Shown: positions 5,876-37,605, numbered from the stretch's first letter. The stretch: 64,000 nt of DNA from Candidatus Heimdallarchaeum aukensis (GCA_021513695.1 CP084166.1:1920001-1984000), one strand, 5' to 3'. Numbers and translations are program-made. Notes: generated by a model from the sequence alone, not told the origin.

Positions 5876-6101
5876 TATAAAACACTGCCCAATTTGTAAA
5901 AAGGAAAAAAATGGAGAAAACACTTTTTGCGAAATTCATGAAAAAGCCAAAAAGTCACTTTTAGAAGGATACGAACTCTGGCTTAAAGCGTATGGGATAT
6001 TATCATGGGAAGCATACTTAAAAGAACTTTCAGCTTTAGATGAAAGAGTCGGAAAAACTGTAAAAGAAGTTATAGACTATGAAAGATTCTTCAAGAAGTA
6101 A
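5856..6101 (+). CDS. small zinc-ribbon protein (hypothetical)
   Basis: 81 aa containing HCPICKK...FCEIH. It overlaps the topA stop by 20 nt. Confidence 0.35.
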   Translation: MIKMKNSIKHCPICKKEKNGENTFCEIHEKAKKSLLEGYELWLKAYGILSWEAYLKELSALDERVGKTVKEVIDYERFFKK

Positions 6102-6107
6102 AAGATG

Positions 6108-6344
6108 TTAAGAAGAGAAGAGAGCAATATGAATCTGATCTTTCTCTAGAACGCCCTCAAATTTCTTTTTACCAATAATTATAGTAGGTAAAACGGTTAC
6201 TGATGCTTCCATGTCTTCGTGTTCAACGTTTTTAAGTTTCAATTCAAACAAGTCTCCATATTCATCAATAACTTCCTTTAATTTCTTTTCAGCAATAGAA
6301 CAATATAAGCAATCGTTGGATGTGAATAGAATAATCTCGTTCAT
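6108..6344 (-). CDS. glutaredoxin/thioredoxin-fold small redox protein
   Basis: 78 aa with an N-terminal CLYC (CxxC) motif in a beta-alpha-beta context. Confidence 0.55.
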   Translation of the reverse strand: MNEIILFTSNDCLYCSIAEKKLKEVIDEYGDLFELKLKNVEHEDMEASVTVLPTIIIGKKKFEGVLEKDQIHIALFSS

Positions 6345-6496
6345 CGGTGTATAAATAAAATTCTTAAAAACTTAAAAACTGAAACAAAAAAAGTCGACAA
6401 GTGACTAATAGTCGGAAAATTTTTTGATATTTTTTAGAAACAAAATTAATATATATAAAATATAAATATGGACAATATAGAGATAATTCGTCGAGT

Positions 6497-7441
6497 GTGA
6501 AATACATGAAAGTATTAGAAGTGAATGAAGATGGTTCATTAACCGAACTTCCTGATTTACAATTAAAGCCAGAAAGCGTTATCATTATCGTAGATGAAGT
6601 AGATAAAAGGATGTGGTTATGGAAGGGCCAAAATTGTCAAATAAGAAAGAAGTTTATTGGAAGTAGAGCACTATCAGATTTAAGGAAAAAAGAATATGGA
6701 TTCGCATATATTCCTCAAACATGCGATCAAGGAGAGGAAACAGCAGAATTTGTTGCTATGCTTCAAAAAATAGGAAAAGAGGATCTAGTTAGTAGTGAAG
6801 TCTTGAGAAAGGCAAAAGAACTCATGGAAAGACAAAGTAGAATAAATGTTTTTGATGAAGTTGAGGAAGAACCTCATAAATTAACTGCATCAATTAGCGA
6901 TGAGGAAGTAGCTAGAATAAAAGATCGACCAGCACAAGTTCCTACATCACAATTGCCAGCAAAGATGGCCAAAATGGGCGCACCAGGAAATAGACCTACA
7001 CCTTCGATCTTATCAGCACTGGACGCGCTAGAAGAGGAAGGGGAACAAGGACCGCCTATTCCAAAAACAAAACAAGTGAGTCAGGAAGTAGAAATCTCAA
7101 CCAAAAGAGCTATGCAAGAACAAGCGGACGATTTACTCAAAAAATCTTTTGAAATTTTGAAAGATTTAGGTGTTCCAAAGGGATTTTATAGAGATCTTAT
7201 AATTATAGGAACAAACGTATATACAGAATCATATGATGGTTCATTCGAAGAATTAGATGAACCACCAGAAGGAGTATTCTTTTCTAGATCTCATGTGCCA
7301 AGAATGATATGTGAAAATGGAATTGTAAGAGCGATAGAATTCCTTAAACCAGAGGAAGGAGCAGAATTAAGCGAGGAAGACGAAAAAATAGCTCAAGATA
7401 TCGAAGATATCTTAAGTATGTTTGAGATAGACATAGGATAA
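6497..7441 (+). CDS. hypothetical acidic protein
   Basis: 314 aa, glutamate-rich; I recognise no family. Confidence 0.4.
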   Translation: MKYMKVLEVNEDGSLTELPDLQLKPESVIIIVDEVDKRMWLWKGQNCQIRKKFIGSRALSDLRKKEYGFAYIPQTCDQGEETAEFVAMLQKIGKEDLVSSEVLRKAKELMERQSRINVFDEVEEEPHKLTASISDEEVARIKDRPAQVPTSQLPAKMAKMGAPGNRPTPSILSALDALEEEGEQGPPIPKTKQVSQEVEISTKRAMQEQADDLLKKSFEILKDLGVPKGFYRDLIIIGTNVYTESYDGSFEELDEPPEGVFFSRSHVPRMICENGIVRAIEFLKPEEGAELSEEDEKIAQDIEDILSMFEIDIG

Positions 7442-7480
7442 AAAAGAACAAATTAAAGGTAAAGTAGATAGGGTGATAGA

Positions 7481-7771
7481 GTGGATATAAAAGACTACGC
7501 CTCTCTACAAATTCTTTTTCACCCTTCAATTCCAATTAATCAAAAAAAAATAGAGAAAAGAGTGAAAAAGGGTCTAACGATAGGAGAAGCATTAATTGAA
7601 ACACTTAAGGAAAGTGAAGAAGCATTTAATTATTTAGTAAAGAACGAAAAAATACGCCCTGGATTTTTAATCTTAAATAACAAAATAGAACTAAAGACAA
7701 CAGGAAAACTGGGAAGTAAAATAGAGGGAGATTTAACTATAAGAATAATTCCAATTTCACACGGCGGATAA
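7481..7771 (+). CDS. MoaD/ThiS/SAMP-like ubiquitin-fold protein ending in Gly-Gly
   Basis: 96 aa with the C-terminus ...IPISHGG immediately before the stop, as in beta-grasp sulfur carriers and archaeal SAMP modifiers. Confidence 0.55.
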   Translation: MDIKDYASLQILFHPSIPINQKKIEKRVKKGLTIGEALIETLKESEEAFNYLVKNEKIRPGFLILNNKIELKTTGKLGSKIEGDLTIRIIPISHGG

Positions 7772-7891
7772 GATATAGATAAAATAATCCAAGAAGAATT
7801 ATAAGAAAAAGAAAAAAAGATTTCAAATAAATTTTAGATTAAAAGAGAAGAAATAAGCAAAAAGAGAGAAGAGATTATTTAACCGTCTTTT

Positions 7892-8623
7892 TTAGTCTCT
7901 TTTTTTTGTTTCTTTTTTAGAGTCCTTTTTTGAAGAGAAGAGGTCCAACAAACTGTCGATCCATAAGGAGACAGTGTTTAAAATTGGAACATTCTGCCCT
8001 TCAATTATAAAAGCAAACAAAATTGTACCAAAAAAGCCAATAGGCTTACCTAACACGTCATGAGACCACATCCAAGCAGCATCATAGGTAGTACCATAAT
8101 CAACCATGAGTGTGACAGTCATACCAACGATTAAAGCTATACGCAAAAAATTAGTTAGAACAAGAGCCAAGATAGTAAAACTAGTGGCTTTAACTTTATC
8201 CCAAGGCTTGGCGGGAGTAACAATAATAAGAGCCATGAGTAAAGCACCAGCTTGCATGGCAGTACAAGCGCGAACAATGGCAAAACGCTTGTTAACAGTA
8301 ATAGCCTTAATAACAGGAGATTGACCATTATGAAAGTCAAACTTAGCAAAAAAGTCGATTATAGAACCAATAAAGGAACCCTCGATAGCAGGGCTAGTGT
8401 CAATAAATAAGCCATCATAACGAACATTGAATTGGTAAAGCTTCAAGATAGAAAAAGCAGTACTATAAGTAATCTCTTCTAAGAAATAATAGTCAGGAAC
8501 AACATACAATAAAAAAGTTAAGAGTATAACAACGATAAAGGAATAAAGAGAATAAACATGCTTGGATCTACCTTCAAGGCGAATTAAATCACGTAAAACT
8601 AAAGGCTCGGTTTCACTATTCAT
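7892..8623 (-). CDS. archaeosortase/exosortase-family membrane protein
   Basis: Polytopic membrane protein of 243 aa. A single conserved-looking Cys sits in IVRACTAMQAG and an N-x-x-R motif in LTNFLRIALIVG, resembling exosortase/archaeosortase catalytic residues. Confidence 0.5.
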   Translation of the reverse strand: MNSETEPLVLRDLIRLEGRSKHVYSLYSFIVVILLTFLLYVVPDYYFLEEITYSTAFSILKLYQFNVRYDGLFIDTSPAIEGSFIGSIIDFFAKFDFHNGQSPVIKAITVNKRFAIVRACTAMQAGALLMALIIVTPAKPWDKVKATSFTILALVLTNFLRIALIVGMTVTLMVDYGTTYDAAWMWSHDVLGKPIGFFGTILFAFIIEGQNVPILNTVSLWIDSLLDLFSSKKDSKKETKKRD

Positions 8624-8879
8624 ATATTATCGAACAACGATGAATATAGGTAGTTAAAAATACTTCGATATTAAAAAGATTATTTGATAAAAGAGTTCGT
8701 TTGCCTTTCTAAAAAGACTCTAAACAACAATTTTTAATAGCTGTTGAGAAATAATAATATTAGTAAGCAATAACAAAGAAACGTTCGTTTGGTTCGACAA
8801 AAAAAGAAAAAAGCCAACGAACGAATAATTTAAAAACGATGCAAAAACAACAAAATTGCAAACAAACGCAGCATCACCT

Positions 8880-8928
8880 CCAATGATAACAAGAACTCTA
8901 AGCGTGAAAAACAGATGAGTTAGAGAAT
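8880..8928 (+). other. pre-16S rRNA processing stem, 5' arm
   Basis: ccaatgataacaagaactctaagcgtgaaaaacagatgagttagagaat is complementary, with G-U wobbles and small bulges, to the segment at 10563..10616 downstream of the 16S gene. Confidence 0.65.
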
Positions 8929-9054
8929 TTTAGGCCAAAAAAAAATTTTGGTAGTACAGAAAAAGCGTGACACTTGGAGTGTGCGTAAAAGTTAATTCAA
9001 GTTTTAAAAAGCGAAAAAGGTAATAACGACCGTACGAAAATCGTCTGAAAAAGA

Positions 9055-10531
<1,477 letters not shown>

Positions 10532-10536
10532 AAGTT

Positions 10537-10558
10537 TGGGGGGCCTCAGGCCCCTCCC
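10537..10558 (+). other. GC-rich hairpin immediately 3' of the 16S gene (ggggggcc-tcag-ggcccctccc)
   Basis: A perfect 7-8 bp G/C stem, the only such structure in the AT-rich flank. It is present in both copies of the direct repeat. Confidence 0.55.
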
Positions 10559-10562
10559 TATT

Positions 10563-10616
10563 ATTCTCTTTATTTACTCTCTGTTTTTCATTGCTTGGAG
10601 TTCTTGTTATCATTGG
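10563..10616 (+). other. pre-16S rRNA processing stem, 3' arm
   Basis: The reverse complement reads ccaatgataacaagaactccaagcaatgaaaaacagag..., matching 8880..8928. Confidence 0.65.
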
Positions 10617-10644
10617 ACTTTTTTATTTGTCTCAACTTTTCTTT

Positions 10645-10980
10645 ATCTCTTCTATTTTTTTCCATCTTTTTCTTTTATTACGTTTTCTCTTTTTTTCTCC
10701 TTTCTCCCTTTTTTCTCTAGGAGGTGATCCTACCTTCTGTTCTCCTACGGCTACTTTCTTGTTACTTTTTTTCTTTTTCCGCGCTTCTACCTTATTTTTG
10801 CAACAACGGGTGGTATGTTCTTTTTCTTTTTCCTTTTCCATTTCCTTTTTTTATCTAAGTATTAGATTTGTGATCTACGTAATTAATTGTATAGTGATTA
10901 GTTCGGTTGATAAAGCTTACAAAAATAGATTTTTCTTCGATTTTTCGATATTTTTTGTTACTTTTCTGATTTAAAGGTAC
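10645..10980 (+). repeat. long polypyrimidine (CT-rich) low-complexity tract
   Basis: The plus strand is almost purine-free over several hundred nt. ORFs called here are composition artefacts. Confidence 0.8.
10719..10820 (-). pseudogene. inverted, degenerate fragment of the 16S 3' terminal region
   Basis: aggaggtgatcc...cctacggctac...cttgttac...ccgcgcttctacc...gcaacaacgggtggtatgttc aligns to the reverse complement of 16S 10392..10531 with an internal deletion and many purine-to-pyrimidine changes. Confidence 0.6.
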
Positions 10981-11324
10981 TAGACTTTGTAATATAAGTC
11001 TTATAAAATCTAGCAAAATACCGAAACAGTAAGCGAGGATTTTAATTTTATTTTAGTTTCAACTACCTAATTCATGGCTCAATGAGTGGTAGGTTCTTCC
11101 TCCCTCCCGGATGGACCTTTCCCGAGAGCAAGATTACAGTACAAAAATTTTGTACAAAAATCGAGTTGATGGAACAATGTCTTCCTTTGGTCAGGTAAAC
11201 TTCTCTCCCTTGTTACTGTGACTGTATGTCTCATCCTAAATTAGCACAAAATATTGTTGTGGTTTTCTCCAATACAGAAATGAATTATTACAACAAGCCG
11301 TTAAATTAGAAAAAAGAATCAGAT

Positions 11325-12152
11325 ATGTTTCATATTAGGGTTACAAGGTTTAATATTTTTAAACAAAGGTTTTTTATACCTAAACAAATATTAATTATTA
11401 GAACATCTTATATTTTAAGCGTGCACACAATGGATTTTGAAGATTCAATTGAAATATGTATGAAAGTAGATAACATTAATTCAGAAATAGATGTTAATAT
11501 ATCAGAAGAAGAAAAAGATAGGATATATTTAGAGGTAATTCAATGGTTGAATGACAATCCAATTCGTTCGTTAAGTTCTGTAAGCGATTTTATGCAACTC
11601 TTGGAAAGTTTATTATGCTTGGAGATTAAAGAAGATGGAAGACTTATATTAAGTACTTCTGCTTACAGTGATCAACAGTTAAGTGAAGGACTTAAGAGAA
11701 ATAAGGATTTCTTTAATAATTTAATTAAGGAATTTCAAAATAATATTGATAAAGAAATAAATAGAGAGTATGAAAACGAAACAGAAGAGGTTCTATTATT
11801 ACGTTTTCTTAATACAGAAGAACAGATTATTGAGGGAATAAATGAAGTATCAAAAGCATTGACAAAATTCTCTTTCAACAGAAAAAGACGTAGATTTACA
11901 AGAATATTAATTGAAGCATTATTTGAATTTTTAGATAGTATTATTCTAATATTCATAAGATGGATTGAAATAAGTGCTAATAGAAACACAAAGAGAGAAA
12001 ATTTGTCTTTAGAATTATTAGAATGGGATATAAACACGTTTAAATCGACCATCTATAATATAAATAGAATTGCACAATTATCTCAAACAAGTATCGAAGA
12101 AGAAGGAAATAAAAATTTAGCAAAGGTCTTTATAGAAATTTTACAACAGTAG
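11325..12152 (+). CDS. hypothetical protein (the true start may be the ATG at 11430)
   Basis: Open frame with protein-like composition. The first 35 codons read like an AT-rich promoter. First gene of the island. Confidence 0.4.
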   Translation: MFHIRVTRFNIFKQRFFIPKQILIIRTSYILSVHTMDFEDSIEICMKVDNINSEIDVNISEEEKDRIYLEVIQWLNDNPIRSLSSVSDFMQLLESLLCLEIKEDGRLILSTSAYSDQQLSEGLKRNKDFFNNLIKEFQNNIDKEINREYENETEEVLLLRFLNTEEQIIEGINEVSKALTKFSFNRKRRRFTRILIEALFEFLDSIILIFIRWIEISANRNTKRENLSLELLEWDINTFKSTIYNINRIAQLSQTSIEEEGNKNLAKVFIEILQQ

Positions 12153-12162
12153 GAGGTTTTTC

Positions 12163-12948
12163 ATGTCTTTAATTTCAATTGGACATGATACATGTATTCT
12201 TTTAGCATACATATATGATGATGGAATTAGAGATGAATTTGAAAATTATCTTGAAATAAGTAATAATATTAACAATAGAAGTTATTCAAAATATTATCAC
12301 TTACTTCTAAAGTCAGTCGTTGATGAGATTAGTGCGGTGATAGGATCTCGTTTAGGTAATATAATTAAAGAAATGTCAAAAAAATTACAAGAAATAATAC
12401 CTGAAAGAACTACATCTTTATCAATGAAACAATTAAGCGAATTCCTTGAATATATGGAAGATCTAGAAACGATTTATCCAAAAGATGCTGGATTAATTAG
12501 ATATATTAAAAGAAATATGTTAGACAAGAAAAAAAATTACTCTTCTTTAATTGATACAGCTTCAAGAAGGAAAAAATTTTCAGAAATGATAAGTCTAAAG
12601 AATAGGTTCGATATTAATTACTTTTCATCACTTTTTGGAACCTACTTTAAATACTATGATCCAACTGATAAGCTAAGAGATACTGAAATTAAGGAAGATT
12701 TTGAAGAGATAATGAAGAAAATCTTTAAAGGTGCAAGAACAAAAAGAAATACTTATGATAAAATTCACATTTACTCATGTTGCGCTTTTATACGGGAAAA
12801 TAGAAATGATAATCTAAAGTTTACGACCTCTGATCAAATACTACTTGAAAACTCTAGATTATTAGAAAAATATTTTGAGATAGTAGATATGCAATCGTTG
12901 GTAAGATTACTTTACACCCACATGGATTCTCTTCCAGAATCTGTTTGA
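12163..12948 (+). CDS. hypothetical protein
   Basis: 261 aa, preceded by a perfect SD, aggaggtttttcATG. I recognise no family. Confidence 0.5.
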   Translation: MSLISIGHDTCILLAYIYDDGIRDEFENYLEISNNINNRSYSKYYHLLLKSVVDEISAVIGSRLGNIIKEMSKKLQEIIPERTTSLSMKQLSEFLEYMEDLETIYPKDAGLIRYIKRNMLDKKKNYSSLIDTASRRKKFSEMISLKNRFDINYFSSLFGTYFKYYDPTDKLRDTEIKEDFEEIMKKIFKGARTKRNTYDKIHIYSCCAFIRENRNDNLKFTTSDQILLENSRLLEKYFEIVDMQSLVRLLYTHMDSLPESV

Positions 12949-13025
12949 CCTAGTTAATATTTTTCATTTTCTTTGATTTTTATACCGTTTACCGTTCTCT
13001 TTAAACCCATGAAGTATGGTTTCTT

Positions 13026-13301
13026 ATGGCAGATAGATGGAAAGATAACCAAGATAACATTTTTGAGCAATTTTTTCTAAAATATTTTGAATTTAGAAAA
13101 AATAGTAATAATAAACAAAATGATGCATTAAATGAAATTTTAGAGTATATTAAACAAAAAGAAAAATCCAGATATTGGGATTTATATTGCTTTCTTCAGT
13201 CAACTCCTGTGAGAAAAGAATCCCCTTATGTTCGCAAGTTTTCAACAAAGCCATTAAATAAAAGATGGCTAATTTATAAATGGAAAAGCTTTTTTTATTA
13301 A
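13026..13301 (+). pseudogene. gene fragment paralogous to an internal segment of the downstream NACHT-LRR gene
   Basis: ADRWKDNQDNIFEQFFLKYFEFRKN...ILEYI compared with IADKWKDSKENNFEKFIIKCLEFRRD...ILDYI. The 17-nt string gaagtatggtttcttat is identical at 13008 and 14986. Confidence 0.55.
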
Positions 13302-13345
13302 TAGCGTAAAAACTAATCTTGTTTTAAAGAAAGGAGTAAAAAACT

Positions 13346-16300
13346 ATGCCTAATAAGAAAAGAATCTTCGTATTTTTTATTATTCTGTTAGTACTTTCTT
13401 TCCTTGTTGGAGCACTACCTGCTTTAGTTTCAGAAGGAATCTTTCATTTAAATAGTACGTTAGTTATCATTCTTGCATTATTAAGCCCAATACTAAGCCC
13501 CTTTATTGAGCTTATTTACAGTAATATTGCAAATATAGTTAAAAAGGCCAACTATAACAGAAAAAGAATCGTTTCAATCTTAGAAGAAAATTATCGCAAT
13601 TTTATTCAACATTTAATTATTCCTTCTGCGAGAGGAAACACAGTTAATGAACTTTTACCTCTCCATTCAATAGAACGAAGAATTATGAGCGTTGAAGATT
13701 TGGAAAAATATGTCGAAAGGGGTGAGAAGAACGTTGATTCTTTTCCTTTTACACAAATTGTAGAAGAATTAAAAGGTTCACCTCCAAGATCACTCTCTTC
13801 TAGCCCCCTAAAATATATTATTACGGGAATCTTGAGAAAAAGAAAAAAAATAAAGAACGAGGGAAAAAGACTTCTCAAATATATTATTACAGGAATTCCC
13901 GGAGTAGGGAAGACTAGTTGTTCTTTTCAACTTGCCCTAAAACAGTTAGAAGCTTTCAATAACAAAGAATCAAATTATCTTCCTCTTTGGTTTGATATAG
14001 GTGAAAGAACTGGAAGAAAACAGCTAGGAAATGGTTTGAAATCATTACGTGATATACTTAAGGATTGTAGTACTCAGGTGTCAAAAGAAGAACAACTTAA
14101 AACCTATCTTGCTTTTCTTGAAGGTAAATCTGTTGATAATGTAGAATTACGTCTTTCTGATGATGATTTTGAAATCTTCTGGATTCTCGATGGATGGAAT
14201 GAAAACCCCATAAATGATATGATTACTTGGTTAAGCAATAGAGATACCATAACTATCTTTTCTAGAATGGGAGGAGAACCTTTAGGCTCATCTTCAATTT
14301 CTTTTGATAAATATACTCTTAGACCTTTTACTGTTCAAGATTCCATCTCTTTTCTAACTCAGTTTAATCATGTCCCTGAAAAATGTGCACGTATTATCGC
14401 TAGTTCACTAGATGAACATTATGGTGAAGAATTTCTTATTCCTTTCTTTCTAAATATTATAGTTTATAACTTATCAATACAAGGGATCAATGATACGGTT
14501 CAAACAATAAATTACTTCAACATCGAGCAGACTACTAAATTTAGTTTTTTAAAAGATTTTTTCTACTCTATACTCGAACGTGATTTTTCAAGTATAAATG
14601 CTCAACGTAAACTTAATGATCGACTAAAAAGACAAATTCTCTCTTGGTTCTCTCAAATTCTCTATTTTATAGTGAAAAAAAACTCTAATGTCCCTTCAAG
14701 GATGATTTTCAGAGAGGAAGATTTGCAAGACGCAATAGATAACGTACGTCCTCCAGAAATTGTGAGAACTGATCCTTTAGAAGTATTGACTGATTTATTA
14801 TTTATAGAAAAAGTACAAGATAACAGAGGGGAACGGACTATTTCTTATAGTTTAGTCCATGAACTATATTTAGACTTTTTTCTAGCTTATGCTATTAGTT
14901 CCTTTTGGGAAAAAAAAGAGAATGAGCCTAAATTTGATAACGATGGTCGAATGTATCTTCAGTGGATGGATAATGAATCTTTCGATGAAGTATGGTTTCT
15001 TATTGCTGATAAATGGAAAGATAGCAAAGAGAATAATTTTGAGAAATTTATTATAAAATGTCTTGAATTTAGAAGAGACAAGAAAGACAATCAAGATCTT
15101 ACACTACAACACATTTTAGACTATATTAGAAATAGAGTACTTTCCTATTCTTTTTTACATCCTAATAAACGAAGTATCTCTTCTCATCATAACATATGTT
15201 TATCTTTAAGACTTTTTCCTGGTGGAATTAAAGAATTAGATTTGAGTGAAACAAAAGTTACAGACATTAGTGCTCTTGTGCACTGCACAAATCTACGATA
15301 CTTAGATTTAAGTGGAACAAAAGTTACAGACATTAGTGCTCTTGTGCACTGCACAAATCTACAATACTTAGATTTAAGTGGAACAGACGTTCAAGACATT
15401 AGTCCTCTTTCGCACTGTCCGAATCTACAAAAAATATATTTAAGTGGAACAGATGTTCAAGACATTCGTCCTCTTTCAAGTTGTCCAAATCTACAAGTGC
15501 TGTATTTACTTGGAACACACGTTCAAGACATTAGTCCTCTTTCAAGTTGTCCAAATCTACAAGTGCTGTATTTACTTGGAACACACGTTCAAGACATTCG
15601 TCCTCTTTCAAGTTGTCCAAATCTACAAGTGCTGTATTTACTTGGAACACACGTTCAAGACATTCGTCCTCTTTCAAGTTGTCCAAATTTACAGAGATTA
15701 CGTTTAAGTGGAACAAAAGTTACAGACATTAGTGTTCTTAAAAACTGTCCGAATCTACAAGAATTAGATTTAAGCGATACAGACGTTCAAGACATTAGTC
15801 CTCTTTCAAGTTGTCTAAATCTACAAGAACTGTACTTACTTGCAACACACGTTCAAGACATTAATCCTCTTTCGCACTGTCCGAAACTACAAGTATTAGA
15901 TTTAAGGGGTACACACGTTCAAGACATTAATCCTCTTTCGCACTGTCCGAAACTACAAGTATTAGATTTACATGGAACAAAAGTTACAGACATTAGTGTT
16001 CTTAAAAACTGTCCGAATCTACAAGAATTAGATTTAAGTGGAACAAAAGTTACAGACATTAATCCTCTTTCAAGTTGTCTAAATCTACAAGCACTGTATT
16101 TAAGTGATACAGACGTTACAGACCTTAATCCTCTTTCAAGTTGTCTAAATCTACAAGCACTGTATTTAAGTGATACAGACGTTACAGACCTTAATCCTCT
16201 TTCAAGTTGTCTAAATCTACAAGCACTGTATTTAAGTGATACAGACGTTACAGACCTTAATCCTCTTTCGCACTGTCCGAAACTACAAGTATTAGATTTA

Positions 16301-16861
16301 CATGGAACAAAAGTTACAGACCTTAATCCTCTTTCAAGTTGTCCGAAACTACAAGTATTAGATTTACATGGAACAGACGTTCAAGACATTAGTCCTCTTG
16401 TAAGCTTACCCCATCTACAATACTTAGTTTTACGTGGAACAGACGTTCAAGACCTTAATCCTCTTTCGCACTGTCCGAAACTACAAGTATTAGATTTACA
16501 TGGAACAGACGTTCAAGACATTAGTCCTCTTGTAAGCTTGCCCCATCTACAATACTTAGATTTAAGTGGAACAGACGTTCACGATATTAGTGCTCTTTCA
16601 AGTTGTCCAAATTTACAGAGATTACGTTTAAGTGAAACAAAAGTTACAGACATTAGTGTTCTTGAAAACTGTCCAAATCTACAAGAATTAGTTTTACGTG
16701 GAATAGAAGGTGAATTTAATATTTCTCCTATCATTCGGCATAGACAATTATTAAATCTTGATTTTGATTCTTCACTACAGTTGCTTTGTCCTCGAGACCT
16801 TCAGGATAGTATTGAAGCTCCTGCTCTTCTCAAGATAAAAGATCAAATACAATTTTTCTAA
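13346..16861 (+). CDS. membrane-anchored NACHT/STAND NTPase with C-terminal leucine-rich repeats (NLR-like protein)
   Basis: Two N-terminal hydrophobic helices. Walker A GIPGVGKTS at about 13892..13918. NACHT-type Walker B FWILDGWNE. Helical middle region. About 22 tandem 22-aa repeats of the form LxxCxNLQxLxLxGTxVxDIxPL. Confidence 0.8.
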   Translation: MPNKKRIFVFFIILLVLSFLVGALPALVSEGIFHLNSTLVIILALLSPILSPFIELIYSNIANIVKKANYNRKRIVSILEENYRNFIQHLIIPSARGNTVNELLPLHSIERRIMSVEDLEKYVERGEKNVDSFPFTQIVEELKGSPPRSLSSSPLKYIITGILRKRKKIKNEGKRLLKYIITGIPGVGKTSCSFQLALKQLEAFNNKESNYLPLWFDIGERTGRKQLGNGLKSLRDILKDCSTQVSKEEQLKTYLAFLEGKSVDNVELRLSDDDFEIFWILDGWNENPINDMITWLSNRDTITIFSRMGGEPLGSSSISFDKYTLRPFTVQDSISFLTQFNHVPEKCARIIASSLDEHYGEEFLIPFFLNIIVYNLSIQGINDTVQTINYFNIEQTTKFSFLKDFFYSILERDFSSINAQRKLNDRLKRQILSWFSQILYFIVKKNSNVPSRMIFREEDLQDAIDNVRPPEIVRTDPLEVLTDLLFIEKVQDNRGERTISYSLVHELYLDFFLAYAISSFWEKKENEPKFDNDGRMYLQWMDNESFDEVWFLIADKWKDSKENNFEKFIIKCLEFRRDKKDNQDLTLQHILDYIRNRVLSYSFLHPNKRSISSHHNICLSLRLFPGGIKELDLSETKVTDISALVHCTNLRYLDLSGTKVTDISALVHCTNLQYLDLSGTDVQDISPLSHCPNLQKIYLSGTDVQDIRPLSSCPNLQVLYLLGTHVQDISPLSSCPNLQVLYLLGTHVQDIRPLSSCPNLQVLYLLGTHVQDIRPLSSCPNLQRLRLSGTKVTDISVLKNCPNLQELDLSDTDVQDISPLSSCLNLQELYLLATHVQDINPLSHCPKLQVLDLRGTHVQDINPLSHCPKLQVLDLHGTKVTDISVLKNCPNLQELDLSGTKVTDINPLSSCLNLQALYLSDTDVTDLNPLSSCLNLQALYLSDTDVTDLNPLSSCLNLQALYLSDTDVTDLNPLSHCPKLQVLDLHGTKVTDLNPLSSCPKLQVLDLHGTDVQDISPLVSLPHLQYLVLRGTDVQDLNPLSHCPKLQVLDLHGTDVQDISPLVSLPHLQYLDLSGTDVHDISALSSCPNLQRLRLSETKVTDISVLENCPNLQELVLRGIEGEFNISPIIRHRQLLNLDFDSSLQLLCPRDLQDSIEAPALLKIKDQIQFF
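15221..16710 (+). repeat. 66-bp tandem repeat array (about 22 units, several adjacent units nearly identical) encoding the LRRs
   Basis: For example, the units at 15469..15534, 15535..15600 and 15601..15666 are near-identical at the nucleotide level. Alternative-frame ORFs in the track repeat the same peptide. Confidence 0.9.
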
Positions 16862-17159
16862 ATTGTTGTATATTAGTTTTTTCTTTTTAGAACACCTATC
16901 TTTCTGAAAAAAATCTATTGTTCAGTTATAGCCATAAATCTTTTTTTATGATTGTAAATTTGAATCTATCTTACACAAAAGATCTACCTGTTAACATCCC
17001 TTATTATTTTAGGTAAGATTCTATCCCTCTTTCATGATACAGTTCTAGATATACTGAATTATCTACAAACTGTCAAAGAGCAATACAACATAACAGTGGT
17101 TACTCTTGCTTTTTAGAAATCTCCCTTCATTAGGAGAAAGGAAAAAAACACGATATTGT

Positions 17160-17289
17160 CCTGCGGATGGATCACCTCCTAAGTTTGGGGGGCCTCAGGC
17201 CCCTCCCTATTATTCTTTTTACTCTCTGTTTTTCATTGCTTGGAGTTCTTGTTATCATTGGACTTTTTTATTTGTCTCAATTTTTCTTT
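17160..17289 (+). repeat. direct repeat copy 2 (last 20 nt of 16S + GC hairpin + processing-stem 3' arm) without an upstream 16S gene
   Basis: Identity with 10511..10644 begins exactly at cctgcggatggatcacctcct. Confidence 0.9.
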
Positions 17290-17496
17290 CTTTCATGTTC
17301 TAACACTTTTAGTCGTGTTTCCACCAAAATCCCTTTTCAACTTTCTAAATTTTTTATTCTCGCTCCCATTCTTCTCCATTTTTCTCCATTTTTCTTTTTT
17401 TTTCTAACTAACCTTTTTCTCCCTCTTCCTTTCTTTCTCTCTCCTTCCCCTTTCTTTTTTGGATAAATTTATGTACTTTTTTTCTCTCTTTTCTGT

Positions 17497-18117
17497 ATGT
17501 TTCTTTCTCCTGACCTTTCTTACCTTGTTGGTGCCTTACGTGACGGTTCTGTTTACTATTATTCTCGGAATAGGTCTTACTATACTCTTTTTTATCAAAA
17601 GTATCGTTCTTGGCTTGTTCACTCTATTGGTAAGCGTATAACTAGATTATTTGGTTTAAACTATTCTATTGACGAATATAAGCGCGGTCATTATCGTCTT
17701 CGCATTTCAAGCAAGCGCTTGTATTCTCTCTGGATTGACCAATTTGGTTTTCCTCGTGAGGGTGAGACTCAGTTACACTGGGATGTTCCTCGTCTTATTT
17801 TAGATAGCGATCTTCTTACTCAGTCTTACTTTCTCCGAGCTTTTTTTGACACTGAGGGTGATGTTTCTCCTTCATCTAGTTCTACTTATTATCTTGGTTT
17901 AAGTCAAAAGAATACTACTGTTTTATATCAACTTAAATCTCTTCTTTCTTCTTTCGATATTAAAACTTCCTCCATTCATTTAGCTGATAAAAAGTCTAAT
18001 ACTTACAGGTTTAGTATTGTTGGCAAGGAAGAAATTTTCAAATTTAGGGACAAGATAGGTTCTGAGCACCCTGTTAAGAAAGAAAAAATTGACCAAATTC
18101 TTCTTTCCAGCGACTAA
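17497..18117 (+). CDS. free-standing LAGLIDADG homing endonuclease (two-motif)
   Basis: Motif 1 LSYLVGALRDGSV and motif 2 YFLRAFFDTEGDVS. 206 aa. Strongly T-rich codon usage (tct, ctt, cgt, ttt) unlike neighbouring genes. Confidence 0.75.
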   Translation: MFLSPDLSYLVGALRDGSVYYYSRNRSYYTLFYQKYRSWLVHSIGKRITRLFGLNYSIDEYKRGHYRLRISSKRLYSLWIDQFGFPREGETQLHWDVPRLILDSDLLTQSYFLRAFFDTEGDVSPSSSSTYYLGLSQKNTTVLYQLKSLLSSFDIKTSSIHLADKKSNTYRFSIVGKEEIFKFRDKIGSEHPVKKEKIDQILLSSD

Positions 18118-18619
18118 ATTATTATTTTTTAATTATCAAGAGCATTAAGGGTTTATTCAGCTTATTTTTGTCTCTTTAGATATGGATTAGCTTTTTCTTT
18201 CTTAGATGGAAGTTGTTTGTTTATAGAATTGCCTTTCCTCCTTCCTTCTCTTTCTTATCCTTTCTTATTTTCTCTTTATTCCTCTTTATTAAGTTTCAAA
18301 TACATATTCATTGTTAGTTTATTCTTTCTAGCCTAATTTATTCATTTTTAGATCCATACCTTTCCTTTTTAGTTAACTTTCTTTTTAGCTATCATATTAC
18401 AGCTATCACTATCAATAATGCTATCGACTATCACTATCAAAGGGAGTGATAACATTAAGAAAATAAAGATAAAGTGAATGAAAAGAAAGGAAAAAATAAG
18501 TAAAAGCAGAAAAAGTAAAAAACGGACATAAGGTAAAAAAAATAGAAGAGTAAGACTTAAGTCAAATACAAAAAAGTTTAAGATAGAATTGTAAAAAAGA
18601 GAATCAAAAGGAAAAATAA

Positions 18620-18715
18620 GACCCTGTAGCTCAGCAGGATAGAGCGCTGGCCTTCTAATCTCAGTTGAGAGAAGCTAGTCAGCGGTCGACGGTTCGAATC
18701 CGCCCAGGGTCGCCA
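18620..18715 (+). tRNA. tRNA-Arg (anticodon TCT) with a 19-nt intron after the anticodon loop (about 18659..18677), CCA encoded
   Basis: Acceptor stem gaccctg/cagggtc; D stem gctc/gagc; anticodon stem ctggc/gtcag with loop cttctaa; T loop ttcgaat. One A-C mismatch in the T stem lowers confidence. Confidence 0.55.
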
Positions 18716-21127
18716 TTACATTTTTAGTTTTCCTATTATTGTTATTATTTCCCCCTTTTTGTCTTTGAATACTTCACTCTCTGCTATTTCTCTTAATTTT
18801 TTCAAGTATTTCTTTACCAATTCGTTTTCTTCTGGTAAGTTTACTTTTTTCTTTTGTACGTTGGGCTTTTTTTCTTTTTCTCCCACCAGTTTAACTTTGT
18901 ATTCTCTTTTTTGTTTTCCTTCTTTCACTCTTATCTTGTTTTGATTAGTCACTTCATATTCTTTTTTTGCATTCTCTTTTCTGTCATTCTCTTTTCTGGC
19001 ATTCGAGAACCCTTTTTCTTTTATCAATTCCACGAATTTTTCTCCTACTTTATTCCACACTTGTTGGTATTCCCACATAATCAGTATTATCAGAGCTATA
19101 TCTTCTTCTTTTCCTTTCAGCATATTTACTCCGTTTATAGACATTCCTTGTTTTATTGCTGTTGATAGACCAGCTCTTTTTTTCAGAATAGACAGTTTTC
19201 CCTCACTTAAATTGTACTTTTCTTTTAGATATTTTATCCAAGCTTCTCTTTTCTCTATCATTCTTGAGTTACCAAAGTCTACGAAAAGTTTTCCTTTTTT
19301 ATCTATCTTAAAATACATTGGTTCGTGCAACAGAACAGGGCTAAAGTTCTTTATATCAACATTTTTCATCAATTCGTTTAATAAATTGAATTTGCAAGTT
19401 ATCAGTGGGCTTTTTCTGTTCTCGCTTACTCTTAAAAGATCTCCCCTTTCGTTTTCTAGTATAACAAACGTGTCTTTTGATATATTTCTTTTTTCGGTTA
19501 TCTTATGTCCTATCCAATTGCCATCTATAGTTCCTACTTTAAATTTGAAAAATTCTGTAACTTTTTTTGCTATTGAAGAATTATTGGCTAATATATTTTC
19601 TATTTCTTCTAAAGAAAGACAGGTAAAATCCACATTTTCTATTTTCTTTATTATTTCTTTGAAGATTTGCTCTGTAAAACTTTTAATATTGTTAATTGTT
19701 TCAATATTTTTACTTTCAGAAATTTTTGTTATTAAAGAGAAACGTTCATTTGTTGGCACTAAATTAAGAACAATTTCGTCGTAAGTTCTAATTGCGTATC
19801 TAGAAGCCCATTTTTCTAAATAAGAGTAATAGTAAAACAGCTCATCTTTGCACCCAATAAATTCTAAACGGTGTTTTGTTTCGCAGCTGCTTAAAACTTC
19901 AAAATCCTTGAATAGCCCCTCTTTTGTAATAATATTATAAAGGACGTCCTGAATCTTGATGATTGTCTCTATAAAACTATATTTATTTTCTAGGTTATAA
20001 ACAAATTTTCTCTTTTTCAGTCTCGTGAGAAGAAGATTATCTATTTTTTTGAAAATATTTTTATTTTCATTTTTTTCTTCAAATGATGGAATCTCAATAA
20101 AATCAAGGTTAATTCTTGGTTGAAGATCAGTTGCTTCAATTCTCACTATAGAGTTATTCTCACTCACTAGATCTATATAATTGACTATATCGTTTGTAAC
20201 TACTAAATATCCTTGAAGGTTTTTTGTTGCTTCAAATGTCCAACCATTTTCAAGTAAAGAAATAAGTTGATGTTGTTTTATTGCTGCATTTAAGATAAGA
20301 TTTATTGTATCAAGATCTAAACCACTTTTTATTAGCGCTTCTTTTAGATCTCCGTTTTTTTCTTTTCTTAGGAAATCTAAGCCAATATCGTGTAGAGAAC
20401 TTCTTCTTTTTCTTATTAACATTCTTACTAGTTCTTTTTTCTCTTTCACTGCCTCATCTAGACTACCTATTTCAGAGTTTATTTTTTCAAAGATTTTAGA
20501 TTTACGTCTGAAATATACGTTATTTGAACCATTAAACTTCAAGTTTATCGTTTTAATTATATATTTCCCTGAAGCATCTCTTGCCAGCAGTAACTGATCA
20601 AATCCATTATTTTTCCTCTTTCCAAATTTACCAAAACATAGAGTCTCTTCTGCTGTTCCTATCAACTCAACAACATATTTTGTTGTTAATGTGCTTAAAA
20701 TATAAATTAACTGAAATCTCTCAACATAAGCTCGTGGATCATTAACAAAAATTACTTCTTCTTTTATTCCTGCTAAAAATAAGATGATTCTAATAAAAGC
20801 TTCTATTTCAATCTCATTAATTGTTCTAAAAAAGTGCTTGTACTTCTTTTCAAATTCCTTTTTTCCTACTTTGCTATAAATTGAACTTTCTATTTCCTTT
20901 ATTATTTTATTTATAAAAATCATAAAGAATAATTTAAGAGATTCTAACTCCAGTCTAGTAATTGAATCCACTCTTAATTTACTTATTTTCTTTAAGTTAT
21001 TTCTTTCTAAATCCAGTTCTTGTTGTTCTTTGAGGAGATGAAATAATTCTGTAATAGTAGAGCAACGCAAAAGATTCCAGATATTTAAATTTGCATTTTT
21101 ATAAACAATTTTTTTCATTATATGCAA
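18716..21127 (-). CDS. large hypothetical protein with a lysine-rich C-terminal tail
   Basis: 803 aa with no recognisable catalytic motif. The C-terminal ~100 aa are K/E-rich. The stop codon abuts the CCA end of tRNA-Arg. Confidence 0.5.
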   Translation of the reverse strand: MHIMKKIVYKNANLNIWNLLRCSTITELFHLLKEQQELDLERNNLKKISKLRVDSITRLELESLKLFFMIFINKIIKEIESSIYSKVGKKEFEKKYKHFFRTINEIEIEAFIRIILFLAGIKEEVIFVNDPRAYVERFQLIYILSTLTTKYVVELIGTAEETLCFGKFGKRKNNGFDQLLLARDASGKYIIKTINLKFNGSNNVYFRRKSKIFEKINSEIGSLDEAVKEKKELVRMLIRKRRSSLHDIGLDFLRKEKNGDLKEALIKSGLDLDTINLILNAAIKQHQLISLLENGWTFEATKNLQGYLVVTNDIVNYIDLVSENNSIVRIEATDLQPRINLDFIEIPSFEEKNENKNIFKKIDNLLLTRLKKRKFVYNLENKYSFIETIIKIQDVLYNIITKEGLFKDFEVLSSCETKHRLEFIGCKDELFYYYSYLEKWASRYAIRTYDEIVLNLVPTNERFSLITKISESKNIETINNIKSFTEQIFKEIIKKIENVDFTCLSLEEIENILANNSSIAKKVTEFFKFKVGTIDGNWIGHKITEKRNISKDTFVILENERGDLLRVSENRKSPLITCKFNLLNELMKNVDIKNFSPVLLHEPMYFKIDKKGKLFVDFGNSRMIEKREAWIKYLKEKYNLSEGKLSILKKRAGLSTAIKQGMSINGVNMLKGKEEDIALIILIMWEYQQVWNKVGEKFVELIKEKGFSNARKENDRKENAKKEYEVTNQNKIRVKEGKQKREYKVKLVGEKEKKPNVQKKKVNLPEENELVKKYLKKLREIAESEVFKDKKGEIITIIGKLKM

Positions 21128-30989: not shown

Positions 30990-31241
30990 CTATTCAGAAT
31001 CGGATGATCCTGTGTGAAATGCATGAAAGAAAAGTCCAAAAAATGCTCCCAATATTGCCAGTATAATAGTCAACACATATACTACATTAAAGTCCATATT
31101 AATCATCTCACCCATTTTATTCCTATTAATAAGCATTTCGTTATCTGGAATACATATCAACTCGATTTTTGTACAAACTAGTTGTACGTCAATCTTGCTC
31201 GCGGAGAAGTCAAAAATTTTAGAAAAAGTAAGTTTAACCAA
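30990..31241 (-). CDS. small membrane protein (hypothetical)
   Basis: 83 aa with one C-terminal hydrophobic helix. Confidence 0.3.
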   Translation of the reverse strand: MVKLTFSKIFDFSASKIDVQLVCTKIELICIPDNEMLINRNKMGEMINMDFNVVYVLTIILAILGAFFGLFFHAFHTGSSDSE

Positions 31242-37119: not shown

Positions 37120-37605
37120 CTTTAAGTTTCTAGATGTACTTACTATTATTCAAGTTGTACTTGAATAACACCCAAAGGTTCATTTTTAAAAGCATTTTGG
37201 TTTTGATGTTTTTTGCTAGAGGTTAGCTAACATCAGATTTCTTTGAGTTCTTGTGGTTTTGGGGTGAATAGTGACTGTAATGCTTCTCGAAATATCTCTT
37301 TGAAAGGGCTAAAGGAACTTTGTTTGTCCTTCACTAATTTCTGGTCTTCTTCTCTTCATTTCTCACGTGAGAAGAAAAAACCTTTTTTCTGGTTTTAGTG
37401 CTCGAGAAGTGCTCAATCTTCTCTTCTGGTACAATAAGTGGTTAGTTTTTCTCTCTTAACTTTCCTTTGAGTAAAATTACGTCGAACAATTTGTACAAAA
37501 ATTAAGTTTATGAAAATTTATTGTAAAAAAACTTTTTAAAAAATCGACCCTCACCAAATAAGCAATAATGAATATAGAAATATAAAAAATGACAAGATTT
37601 AACAA

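What the first reader, a model, noticed from the sequence alone, without database searches (positions are those of the whole stretch)
10645..10980. Inverted, decayed copy of the 16S 3' end embedded in a polypyrimidine tract right after the processing stem
The stretch 10719..10820 reads aggaggtgatcc / cctacggctac / cttgttac / ccgcgcttctacc / gcaacaacgggtggtatgttc. That is the reverse complement of the last ~140 nt of the adjacent 16S gene, with a ~38-nt deletion. Almost all changes convert purines to pyrimidines on the plus strand.

The surrounding ~330 nt are nearly purine-free. It looks like a relic of an inverted duplication or a second rRNA end. Its decay is strongly strand-biased, or selected towards a homopyrimidine state capable of forming a triplex (H-DNA).
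Basis: seen in the sequence. Interest (0 to 1): 0.55.

Follow-up and report, generated by a model that had tools for sequence, protein, structure and literature searches.

The report
16S-end scar inside a mobile element
The inverted, decayed copy of the 16S rRNA 3' end is real, but it sits just inside a published mobile element (HeimM2) inserted behind the only 16S gene of an Asgard archaeon, so it is most likely a recombination scar and not part of rRNA processing.

Summary
The reverse complement of 10719-10820 aligns colinearly with the last 137 nt of the adjacent 16S gene. The score is 73.5, against 27.8±3.5 for dinucleotide shuffles and a maximum of 38 in 2072 genomic controls. Its decay is strand-biased: 11 changes make the + strand more pyrimidine-rich, 1 goes the other way (Fisher P=2e-4).

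The context changes the reading. The window comes from Ca. Heimdallarchaeum aukensis. Homology with the sister species H. endolithica stops at 10643/10644 and resumes near 18197. The relic and its pyrimidine tract are therefore the first ~210 nt of the published ~8-kb element HeimM2, not part of the rRNA locus.

New here: a 134-bp direct repeat (last 21 nt of the 16S plus the whole trailer; 10511-10644 and 17160-17289) splits the element into two modules.

The sister species and 15 more distant relatives lack the relic. Rfam does not detect it. Only 4 of 19 mismatches would keep pairing with the 16S. Eight T-runs of at least 4 precede it. The tract has no mirror symmetry above chance, so H-DNA gets no specific support.

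Best reading: a recombination scar being absorbed by slippage-prone T/C-rich DNA that may also terminate rRNA read-through. Interest is modest.

The parts
9054..10531 (+). The only 16S rRNA gene of the genome; source, or homologue of the source, of the relic
   Evidence: Rfam SSU_rRNA_archaea, 1336 bits, model positions 1-1478. PMC8813620 states it is the only 16S copy.
8879..8934 (+). 5' strand of the 16S processing stem, in the leader
   Evidence: RNAcofold gives 52 intermolecular pairs between 8879-8934 and 10557-10617, -88 kcal/mol. An inverted repeat is 96% complementary over 25 nt. The leader is about 90% conserved in H. endolithica.
10511..10644 (+). Direct repeat copy 1 (DR1). It holds the last 21 nt of the 16S and the 113-nt trailer: a stem-loop, the 3' strand of the processing stem (10557-10617) and a T6 run at 10619-10624 (probable terminator). 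Its right end is the left junction of the mobile element.
   Evidence: 95.5% identical to 17160-17289 over 134 nt. Homology with H. endolithica ends at 10643. All related trailers end with a T-run after the stem.
10645..10718 (+). Pyrimidine tract, part a (92% C+T). First 74 nt of the element, with six T-runs of at least 4.
   Evidence: Composition and T-runs. TRF finds a 17-nt period at 10656-10695. No homologue in H. endolithica.
10719..10820 (-). The relic: an inverted, degenerate copy of 16S positions 10395-10531, lacking the tip and 3' strand of helix 44
   Evidence: SW 73.5 against shuffles 27.8±3.5 and an empirical maximum of 38. Substitution spectrum. Not detected by Rfam even at E<=10.
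10821..10856 (+). Pyrimidine tract, part b (94% C+T; TTCCTT repeated about 5 times)
10632..10841 (-). Annotated 69-aa Lys/Glu/Arg-rich ORF (K9W45_08655) lying over the relic; probably a by-product of the purine-rich minus strand
   Evidence: The only database match is itself. No Pfam or PHROG family. The stop-free run is 72 codons against 46±13 in shuffles, P=0.05.
11325..16861 (+). Cargo genes of module A: three ORFans (275, 261 and 91 aa) and a 1171-aa leucine-rich-repeat protein
   Evidence: ORFs. Pfam LRR_4 1.4e-102, nothing for the others; PADLOC none. PMC8813620 describes the LRR gene as targeted by a CRISPR spacer.
17160..17289 (+). Direct repeat copy 2 (DR2): last 21 nt of the 16S plus the trailer. 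It separates module A from module B.
   Evidence: 90.6% identical to the H. endolithica trailer.
17290..17496 (+). Second pyrimidine tract, directly after DR2. It has no 16S similarity and differs by indels between assemblies.
   Evidence: The stretch 17263-17496 is 82% C+T with nine T-runs of at least 5. CCATTTTTCT is repeated 3 times. There are 8 differences from L019 in about 300 nt. SW against the 16S is at background.
17497..18117 (+). LAGLIDADG homing endonuclease gene (module B)
   Evidence: Pfam LAGLIDADG_3, 8.6e-13. Described in PMC8813620.
18197..18715 (+). The right junction of the element (~18197) and conserved chromosomal DNA: a pyrimidine tract, CTATCA repeats, a purine tract, and tRNA-Arg(TCT) at 18620-18715 with an intron
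   Evidence: 91% identical to H. endolithica from 18197 onward. tRNA.

Best explanation
The relic is a non-functional scar. It is a partial, inverted copy of the 3' end of a Heimdallarchaeum 16S gene. It sits 75-176 nt inside the left end of HeimM2, a mobile element integrated directly behind the 16S trailer of Ca. Heimdallarchaeum aukensis.

**Shown**
- The space between the 16S trailer and tRNA-Arg(TCT) is an insertion hot spot. Different DNA occupies it in the two sister species.
- Extra copies of the trailer (134 bp in this genome) bracket the inserted modules, as attachment-site duplications do.
- The relic is decaying with a strong bias towards pyrimidines on the + strand.
- The surrounding T/C-rich DNA has short-period internal repeats. 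The second tract differs by indels between assemblies.

**Inferred**
- One of the recombination events between mobile DNA and the 16S 3' end, possibly helped by the element's homing endonuclease, left a piece of the gene in inverted orientation.
- Deletions, biased substitutions and slippage are absorbing the relic into the pyrimidine tract.
- With 15 T-runs of at least 4 in 239 nt, the tract plausibly also acts as a stack of archaeal U-tract terminators. That would insulate the element from read-through out of the rRNA gene. It would also keep the relic out of the pre-rRNA.
For: **Reality and bias of the relic:**

**Location inside element-specific DNA**
- The 69-aa ORF identifies the genome as Ca. 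H. aukensis.
- PMC8813620 describes an 8-kb element with an LRR protein and a homing endonuclease. It lies exactly between the single 16S gene and tRNA-Arg(TCT). HeimV2 occupies the same site in H. endolithica.
- Homology with H. endolithica covers 6000-10643 (90.9%), stops there, and resumes at 18197 (91%).

**Attachment-site-like repeats**
- 10511-10644 equals 17160-17289 at 95.5%.
- H. endolithica also has a second, partial trailer copy at L027 1713-1783.

**No sign of function in rRNA biology**
- H. endolithica and 15 Heimdall-type 16S loci lack the relic.
- No Rfam hit.
- Only 4 of 19 mismatches keep pairing through G-U.
- Helix 45 of the copy is broken.
- Eight T-runs of at least 4 lie between the processing stem and the relic. 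In Methanococcus, termination efficacy rises with the number of U4 tracts, and a Lokiarchaeal aCPSF1 reads the same signal (PMC8716108).

**Slippage:** short-period repeats in the tracts and indel differences between assemblies in the second tract.
Against: - The creating event cannot be reconstructed. The source 16S is unresolved: at informative sites the relic matches aukensis 3 times, endolithica 2 times and neither once.
- The element has no integrase.
- An inverted relic of the rRNA 3' flank also occurs in the unrelated left end of HeimV2 in H. endolithica. There it is the trailer, with SW 58.5 against 37±4.7. Recurrence hints at something more systematic than an accident.
- Purine avoidance, with C at 24-26% against 16% genome-wide, is stronger than T-run terminators alone would need.
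- The bias in the relic (P=2e-4) could reflect selection rather than mutation.
- The relic region shows no difference between two assemblies, while the second tract shows eight.
- Transcription and termination were not measured.
Confidence: 0.6

Rival explanations
1. The inverted copy is part of the recombination-site architecture of elements that target the 16S trailer. Under this view an inverted copy of the target next to the attachment core is needed for integration or excision, or is made systematically by it. The mechanism could be a recombinase acting in trans, or break repair induced by the homing endonuclease.
For: - Both elements that directly abut the real 16S carry an inverted relic of the neighbouring rRNA 3' region within about 75-340 nt of the junction. 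Their flanks are otherwise not homologous.
- Trailer copies bracket modules in both genomes.
- A homing endonuclease gene is present.
Against: - The two relics cover different parts of the target (16S end versus trailer) and lie at different distances from the junction.
- Both are heavily decayed, which is not expected for a binding site in use.
- The second modules have none.
- No terminal inverted repeat of module A exceeds chance.
- No recombinase gene in the element.
- The sample is two elements.
Confidence: 0.12
2. The tract is a functional RNA element. In this reading, transcripts that read through from the 16S gene carry an antisense segment. That segment folds back on the 16S 3' minor domain (decoding-site strand, helix 45, anti-Shine-Dalgarno tail). 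It would hold the domain inactive or mark the transcript for decay.
For: - As one RNA, 10380-10860 folds at -141 kcal/mol against -88±4.5 for shuffles. The relic pairs with the 16S segments either side of helix 44, and helix 44 stays a separate hairpin.
- There is a perfect 13-nt match to the 16S 3' tail.
Against: - The low energy is simply what any inverted repeat gives.
- The relic lies in element DNA that the sister species and other relatives lack.
- Only 4 of 19 mismatches keep pairing.
- Eight T-runs of at least 4, including the conserved terminator, lie upstream of it.
- A perfect run of 13 is expected by chance at this level of divergence (my own estimate, about 1.4 such runs).
Confidence: 0.07
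3. The pyrimidine tract is kept for a DNA-level property. Candidates are triplex (H-DNA) formation, exclusion of archaeal histones, or easy unwinding. The relic is being converted because that property is under selection.
For: - Extreme strand asymmetry, the lowest purine content in 64 kb.
- Bias in the relic's substitutions and indels.
- A pyrimidine tract upstream of tRNA-Arg is kept in both species although its repeat units differ.
- Uninterrupted pyrimidine runs of up to about 36 nt can be read directly in the sequence.
Against: - No mirror symmetry above shuffles in any of the three tracts.
- About 18% purines interrupt the tract.
- Nothing like it follows the 16S in the sister species or other relatives.
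- Slippage and terminator function explain the composition without invoking DNA structure.
Confidence: 0.1
4. The minus strand encodes a real small basic protein (K9W45_08655, 69 aa). Selection on its Lys/Glu/Arg codons would explain the purine richness of that strand.
For: - Gene callers predict it in three assemblies.
- The open frame is somewhat longer than composition predicts, 72 against 46±13 codons, P=0.05.
Against: - No homologue among 5.8 billion proteins, and no Pfam or PHROG family.
- Part of it is demonstrably rRNA-derived.
- Purine tracts are poor in stop codons by composition.
- The purine-rich stretch extends beyond the ORF.
- The second pyrimidine tract has no such ORF.
Confidence: 0.06
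5. The relic is the stump of an ancestral second rRNA operon that converged on the first, most of it deleted.
For: Tail-to-tail orientation with the intact gene.
Against: - No further 16S similarity anywhere else in the window (nhmmer --max).
- The relic is absent at the orthologous place in the sister species, whose DNA right of 10644 is unrelated.
- PMC8813620 reports a single 16S copy.
Confidence: 0.04

Closest known systems
HeimM2 and HeimV2, mobile elements of Ca. Heimdallarchaeum (Wu et al. 2022, Nat Microbiol, PMC8813620)
   Same: This is that element. It is an ~8-kb stretch with an LRR protein and an rRNA-intron-type homing endonuclease, between the single 16S gene and tRNA-Arg(TCT). 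The window matches in gene content and position.
   Different: The main text does not contain the terms 'direct repeat', 'inverted repeat' or 'polypyrimidine'. So the 134-bp repeat, the two-module structure, the inverted 16S relic and the pyrimidine tracts are not described there. I did not read the supplements.
Duplication of the 3' end of a stable-RNA gene by integrative elements at tRNA or tmRNA genes (attL/attR repeats; tandem arrays at hot spots). From general knowledge of bacterial islands and archaeal SSV- and pNOB8-type integration.
   Same: Direct repeats containing the 3' end of an RNA gene flank the inserted DNA. The repeat ends exactly where synteny with the sister genome ends. Several unrelated elements use the same site.
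   Different: The target is the 3' end and trailer of a 16S rRNA gene, not a tRNA. No integrase gene lies in the element. The feature under study is an additional inverted and decayed copy that reaches 137 nt into the gene, far beyond the repeat.
Archaeal rRNA introns carrying LAGLIDADG homing endonucleases (I-DmoI type; general knowledge)
   Same: The same enzyme family is present. Relatives carry small insertions at three sites in the very same 16S 3' region, and DR2 begins between two of those sites.
   Different: The endonuclease gene here lies outside the mature rRNA, after a trailer copy. No match to a solved endonuclease by sequence. The cleavage site is unknown.
Archaeal U-tract terminators read by aCPSF1/FttA (PMC8716108)
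   Same: The tract has 15 T-runs of at least 4 in 239 nt. In Methanococcus, more U4 tracts give more termination and stronger aCPSF1 binding.
   Different: Known terminators have one to a few tracts within about 30 nt, not a 200-nt purine-free array. Function here is not tested.
H-DNA-forming homopurine-homopyrimidine mirror repeats (general knowledge)
   Same: Strong purine/pyrimidine strand asymmetry.
   Different: No mirror symmetry above chance, and the tract is interrupted by purines.
rRNA-gene-specific mobile elements of eukaryotes (R1/R2 retrotransposons, Pokey; general knowledge)
   Same: They use the rRNA locus as a specific landing site.
   Different: Those insert inside the 28S gene by other enzymes. 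Here the mature rRNA is left intact.

Membership tests
Functional SSU rRNA gene or recognisable SSU fragment | Match to an Rfam SSU covariance model | tested here: not met
   cmscan of 10532-19100 at E<=10 gives no SSU hit on either strand.
Inverted duplicate of the adjacent 16S 3' end | Colinear reverse-complement similarity above chance | tested here: met
   SW 73.5 against dinucleotide shuffles 27.8±3.5 and an empirical maximum of 38 in 2072 segments.
Conserved rRNA leader/trailer processing element | Present at the orthologous place in related genomes | tested here: not met
   Homology with H. endolithica ends at 10643. No relic in H. endolithica or the other Heimdall-type 16S loci.
Conserved rRNA leader/trailer processing element | Base pairing with its partner maintained by compensatory or G-U changes | tested here: not met
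   Only 4 of 19 mismatch columns still pair. No homologous sequences exist for a covariation test.
Integrated mobile element with attachment-site duplication | Direct repeats flank the insert, and the repeat edge coincides with the synteny break | tested here: met
   10511-10644 equals 17160-17289 at 95.5%. Three-way divergence at 10644 / 17289 / endolithica 12775. The right junction is near 18197.
Integrated mobile element with attachment-site duplication | Element-encoded integrase or recombinase | tested here: not met
   Pfam, PHROGs and PADLOC find only LRR and LAGLIDADG domains.
Integrated mobile element with attachment-site duplication | Excision, a circular form, or an empty site observed | not testable with these tools
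   Needs read-level data or PCR. Both metagenome scans returned nothing.
DNA transposon with terminal inverted repeats | Inverted repeats at the two inner ends of module A | tested here: not met
   The best match scores 27, and 5% of random segments score as high.
H-DNA (intramolecular triplex) motif | Homopurine-homopyrimidine mirror repeat | tested here: not met
   The best mirror arm has 11 matches against 9.8±1.3 (max 14) in shuffles. The other two tracts behave the same.
Archaeal U-tract terminator | T-runs of at least 4 on the non-template strand downstream of the gene | tested here: met
   15 runs of at least 4 and 11 runs of at least 5 in 10618-10856. The background mean is 1.5 runs of at least 5 per 240 nt, maximum 10.
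Archaeal U-tract terminator | Transcript 3' ends map there | not testable with these tools
   No transcript data are available here.
Protein-coding gene (K9W45_08655) | Homologues or a known domain | tested here: not met
   Only a self-hit. No Pfam or PHROG family.

The most novel reading that the evidence does not exclude
Mobile elements that land behind the sole 16S gene of Heimdallarchaeum may share an undescribed way of using the rRNA 3' end. The evidence is that both elements abutting the gene (HeimM2 here, HeimV2 in the sister species) carry an inverted copy of the adjacent rRNA end or trailer. That copy could be a required or systematically generated part of a 16S-trailer-specific integration system, perhaps assisted by the homing endonuclease. 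Together with a purine-free U-tract array, it could form an element-borne insulator against rRNA read-through.
Probability: 0.12. Interest if true: 0.6.

Novelty: new member of a known kind. Interest (0 to 1): 0.3.

Why it matters
- **For rRNA biology:** this is not a new rRNA-processing or triplex element, so it should not be pursued as one.
- **For the published element HeimM2:** the work adds detail. It places the junctions at about 10644 and 18197. It finds a 134-bp repeat made of the 16S 3' end plus the trailer, and shows a two-module build.
- **For Asgard mobile elements:** the flank of the only 16S gene takes up unrelated mobile DNA again and again, and fragments of the rRNA gene are left behind. 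If the inverted copies prove systematic, they would point to an rRNA-trailer-specific integration mechanism.
- **For annotation:** K9W45_08655 is probably not a gene.

Tried and rejected
**Searches that returned nothing**
- Two metagenome scans with lineage-specific 16S helix-44 patterns: 0 hits.
- Two viral-contig scans, one with the relic and one with the 100-nt repeat: 0 hits.

**Routes that led nowhere**
- Synteny to more distant relatives: neighbouring proteins of the window have no match in the 16 GTDB loci, and the reverse search also fails. A 74%-identical archaeosortase locus has no 16S next to it.

**Ideas tested and rejected**
- 16S similarity in the other pyrimidine or purine tracts: all at background.
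- A decayed direct 16S copy upstream of DR2: P about 0.045 at best, so inconclusive.
- Orthology between the aukensis tract and DNA after the endolithica trailer: 33% of random segments score as high.
- Terminal inverted repeats of module A: not above chance.
- Pyrimidine tracts as a general 3'-flank feature of this genome: no. Gene 3' flanks are 30-70% pyrimidine.
- A hairpin between the pyrimidine and purine tracts upstream of tRNA-Arg: no better than shuffles, z=+1.6.
- Mirror symmetry for H-DNA: none above chance.
- Assigning the source 16S of the relic: unresolved, 3 against 2 informative sites.
- A replication-origin signal in skew profiles: none evident.
- A solved-structure match for the endonuclease, or a defence-system match for the cargo: none.

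Full report
**1. The observation**

The window carries one archaeal 16S rRNA gene at 9054-10531 on the + strand and no 23S gene.

Its reverse complement aligns colinearly with 16S 10395-10531:
- The Smith-Waterman score is 73.5.
- Mononucleotide shuffles give 19.9±3.1, maximum 42.5.
- Dinucleotide shuffles scored against the whole 16S give 27.8±3.5, maximum 41.5.
- 2072 real genomic segments give at most 38.
- The forward orientation is at background.

The alignment has 80 matches, 17 mismatches and 43 gap columns. The gaps are six deletions totalling 40 nt plus a few inserted purines. They remove the tip and the 3' strand of helix 44.

The decay is strand-biased. In the 16S sense there are 11 pyrimidine-to-purine changes against 1 in the opposite direction (Fisher P=1.8e-4). 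Deleted bases are 60% pyrimidine, and inserted bases are all purine.

The purine-poor stretch is 10550-10856, with purine fraction 0.10-0.26. This is the most extreme stretch in the window. Composition is normal beyond 10857.

Independent JGI and Logan assemblies reproduce the region. One is identical over 10419-11400.

**2. Where it sits**

The processing stem pairs leader 8879-8934 with trailer 10557-10617 (52 pairs). It is followed by a T6 run. Every related Heimdall trailer ends the same way, with the stem and then a T-run. In most relatives a gene on the opposite strand follows within about 200 nt, and none has a pyrimidine tract or a relic.

10511-10644 recurs at 17160-17289 with 95.5% identity. 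This repeat holds the last 21 nt of the 16S plus the entire trailer. After the second copy come another pyrimidine tract and a LAGLIDADG homing endonuclease gene at 17497-18117.

**3. Identity of the genome and the element**

Gene callers annotate a 69-aa ORF over the relic. Its only database match is itself, a hypothetical protein of Candidatus Heimdallarchaeum aukensis on a 3.08-Mb contig.

The genome paper (PMC8813620) describes HeimM2. It is an 8-kb mobile element targeted by a CRISPR spacer. It encodes a leucine-rich-repeat protein and an rRNA-intron-type homing endonuclease. [quoted passage not shown] The paper also says the 44-kb HeimV2 occupies the same site in the sister species H. 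endolithica. The terms 'direct repeat', 'inverted repeat' and 'polypyrimidine' do not occur in its main text.

**4. Comparison with the sister species**

I fetched both sides of the H. endolithica locus through flanking proteins.
- Homology with the window runs 6000-10643 at 90.9% and stops there, exactly at the end of the first repeat copy.
- The second copy and the endolithica trailer diverge at the same point.
- Homology resumes near 18197 at 91% and includes tRNA-Arg.

The element therefore spans about 10645-18196. The relic and its tract are its first ~210 nt.

H. endolithica also has a second, partial trailer copy (L027 1713-1783). So trailer copies bracket inserted modules in both genomes, as attachment-site duplications at a hot spot would.

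H. endolithica has no inverted 16S copy and no long pyrimidine tract after its trailer. It does have an inverted, decayed copy of its trailer about 240 nt into HeimV2. That copy scores 58.5 against 37±4.7 for shuffles, and 1 of 1924 empirical controls reaches it. The second modules in both genomes have nothing of the kind.

**5. Tests of function**

*RNA.* As a single RNA, 10380-10860 folds much better than shuffles (-141 against -88±4.5 kcal/mol). The relic pairs with the 16S segments that flank helix 44. Any inverted repeat would do this. Several results speak against a role in rRNA maturation:
- Only 4 of 19 mismatches stay pairable.
- The helix-45 stem of the copy is destroyed.
- Rfam sees nothing.
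- The sequence is not conserved in relatives.
- Eight T-runs of at least 4, including the conserved terminator, lie between the stem and the relic. In Methanococcus, termination efficacy and aCPSF1 binding rise with the number of U4 tracts, and a Lokiarchaeal aCPSF1 reads the same signal (PMC8716108).

*DNA structure.* No tract shows mirror symmetry above shuffles. H-DNA therefore has no specific support.

*Protein.* The 69-aa ORF has no homologue and no known domain. Its open frame is only marginally longer than composition predicts, P=0.05.

*Transposon ends.* Module A has no terminal inverted repeats above chance.

**6. The pyrimidine tracts**

They are not a general feature of gene 3' flanks in this genome. 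They cluster in the 16S-to-tRNA-Arg interval.

Both copies of the repeat are followed by about 200 nt of unrelated but equally T/C-rich DNA. The tracts contain short-period repeats. The second tract differs by several indels between two assemblies of the same population. The tract upstream of tRNA-Arg is kept in both species with different repeat units.

This pattern fits slippage-prone low-complexity DNA. Composition, not sequence, persists. A terminator or insulator role is plausible but untested.

**7. Conclusion**

The relic is best read as a scar of recombination between mobile DNA and the 16S 3' end at an insertion hot spot. It is now eroding into a T/C-rich tract at the element's 16S-proximal end. 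I give this 0.6 confidence.

The main rival is that such inverted target copies are a systematic part of how these elements use the site (0.12). It rests on two elements only. The antisense-RNA, DNA-structure, small-protein and second-operon readings are each weaker.

The source 16S of the relic could not be assigned. The creating event cannot be reconstructed from the available genomes.

Noticed in passing
L022, reverse complement 13018-13114 (H. endolithica CP084167.1): An inverted, decayed copy of the 16S trailer lies about 240 nt into HeimV2, just downstream of a leftward HxlR/PadR-like gene. SW 58.5 against 37±4.7 for shuffles. It parallels the relic in the window but covers a different part of the rRNA 3' region.
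   Followed up: partly
L001-L016 (related Heimdall-type 16S genes), 3' 170 nt: Many relatives carry insertions of about 32-35 nt at three sites in the 16S 3' end: after AAAGTCGT, after GTATCCGT in helix 45, and after CCTGCGGA. These may be mini-introns. DR2 of the window begins between the last two sites.
   Followed up: no
window 11075-11171; 31156-31204 (-); 37460-37515; L027 2154-2245: A repeated element of about 100 nt has a conserved core GAGCAAGATT...GTACAAAAATTTTGTAC...AGTTGATG. One copy sits about 430 nt inside HeimM2 and one at the equivalent place after the second trailer copy in H. endolithica. No Rfam family matches it.
   Followed up: partly
window 18197-18619: The non-coding stretch upstream of tRNA-Arg(TCT) holds a pyrimidine tract, six CTATCA repeats (18403-18439) and a purine tract. 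It is 91% conserved overall in H. endolithica and more conserved in its right-hand part, above the 88% genome-wide identity. It does not fold better than shuffles.
   Followed up: partly
window 8872-8881: The 16S leader contains CATCACCTCC directly abutting the 5' strand of the processing stem. It includes a 9-mer (ATCACCTCC) identical to part of the 16S 3' end, and it is conserved in both species.
   Followed up: no
window 17290-17496 versus L019: The second pyrimidine tract differs from the JGI assembly at eight positions, mostly T or CTTC indels. The first tract and the relic are identical between the two assemblies.
   Followed up: partly
window 17107-17159: The sequence just upstream of DR2 may be a decayed direct copy of the 16S region around the decoding site, with helix 44 missing. 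P is only about 0.045 in the most favourable test.
   Followed up: yes
window 15231-16707: The LRR gene holds about 22 tandem 66-nt repeats. The JGI assembly splits the gene into 962 and 217 aa, so the repeat number or frame differs between assemblies.
   Followed up: no
window 18620-18715: tRNA-Arg(TCT) carries a 21-nt intron. ARAGORN mislabels the anticodon because of it.
   Followed up: no
L027 6245-7696: H. endolithica has a Cas12f/TnpB-like IS element inserted where the window has the uninterrupted ORF 18716-21127.
   Followed up: no
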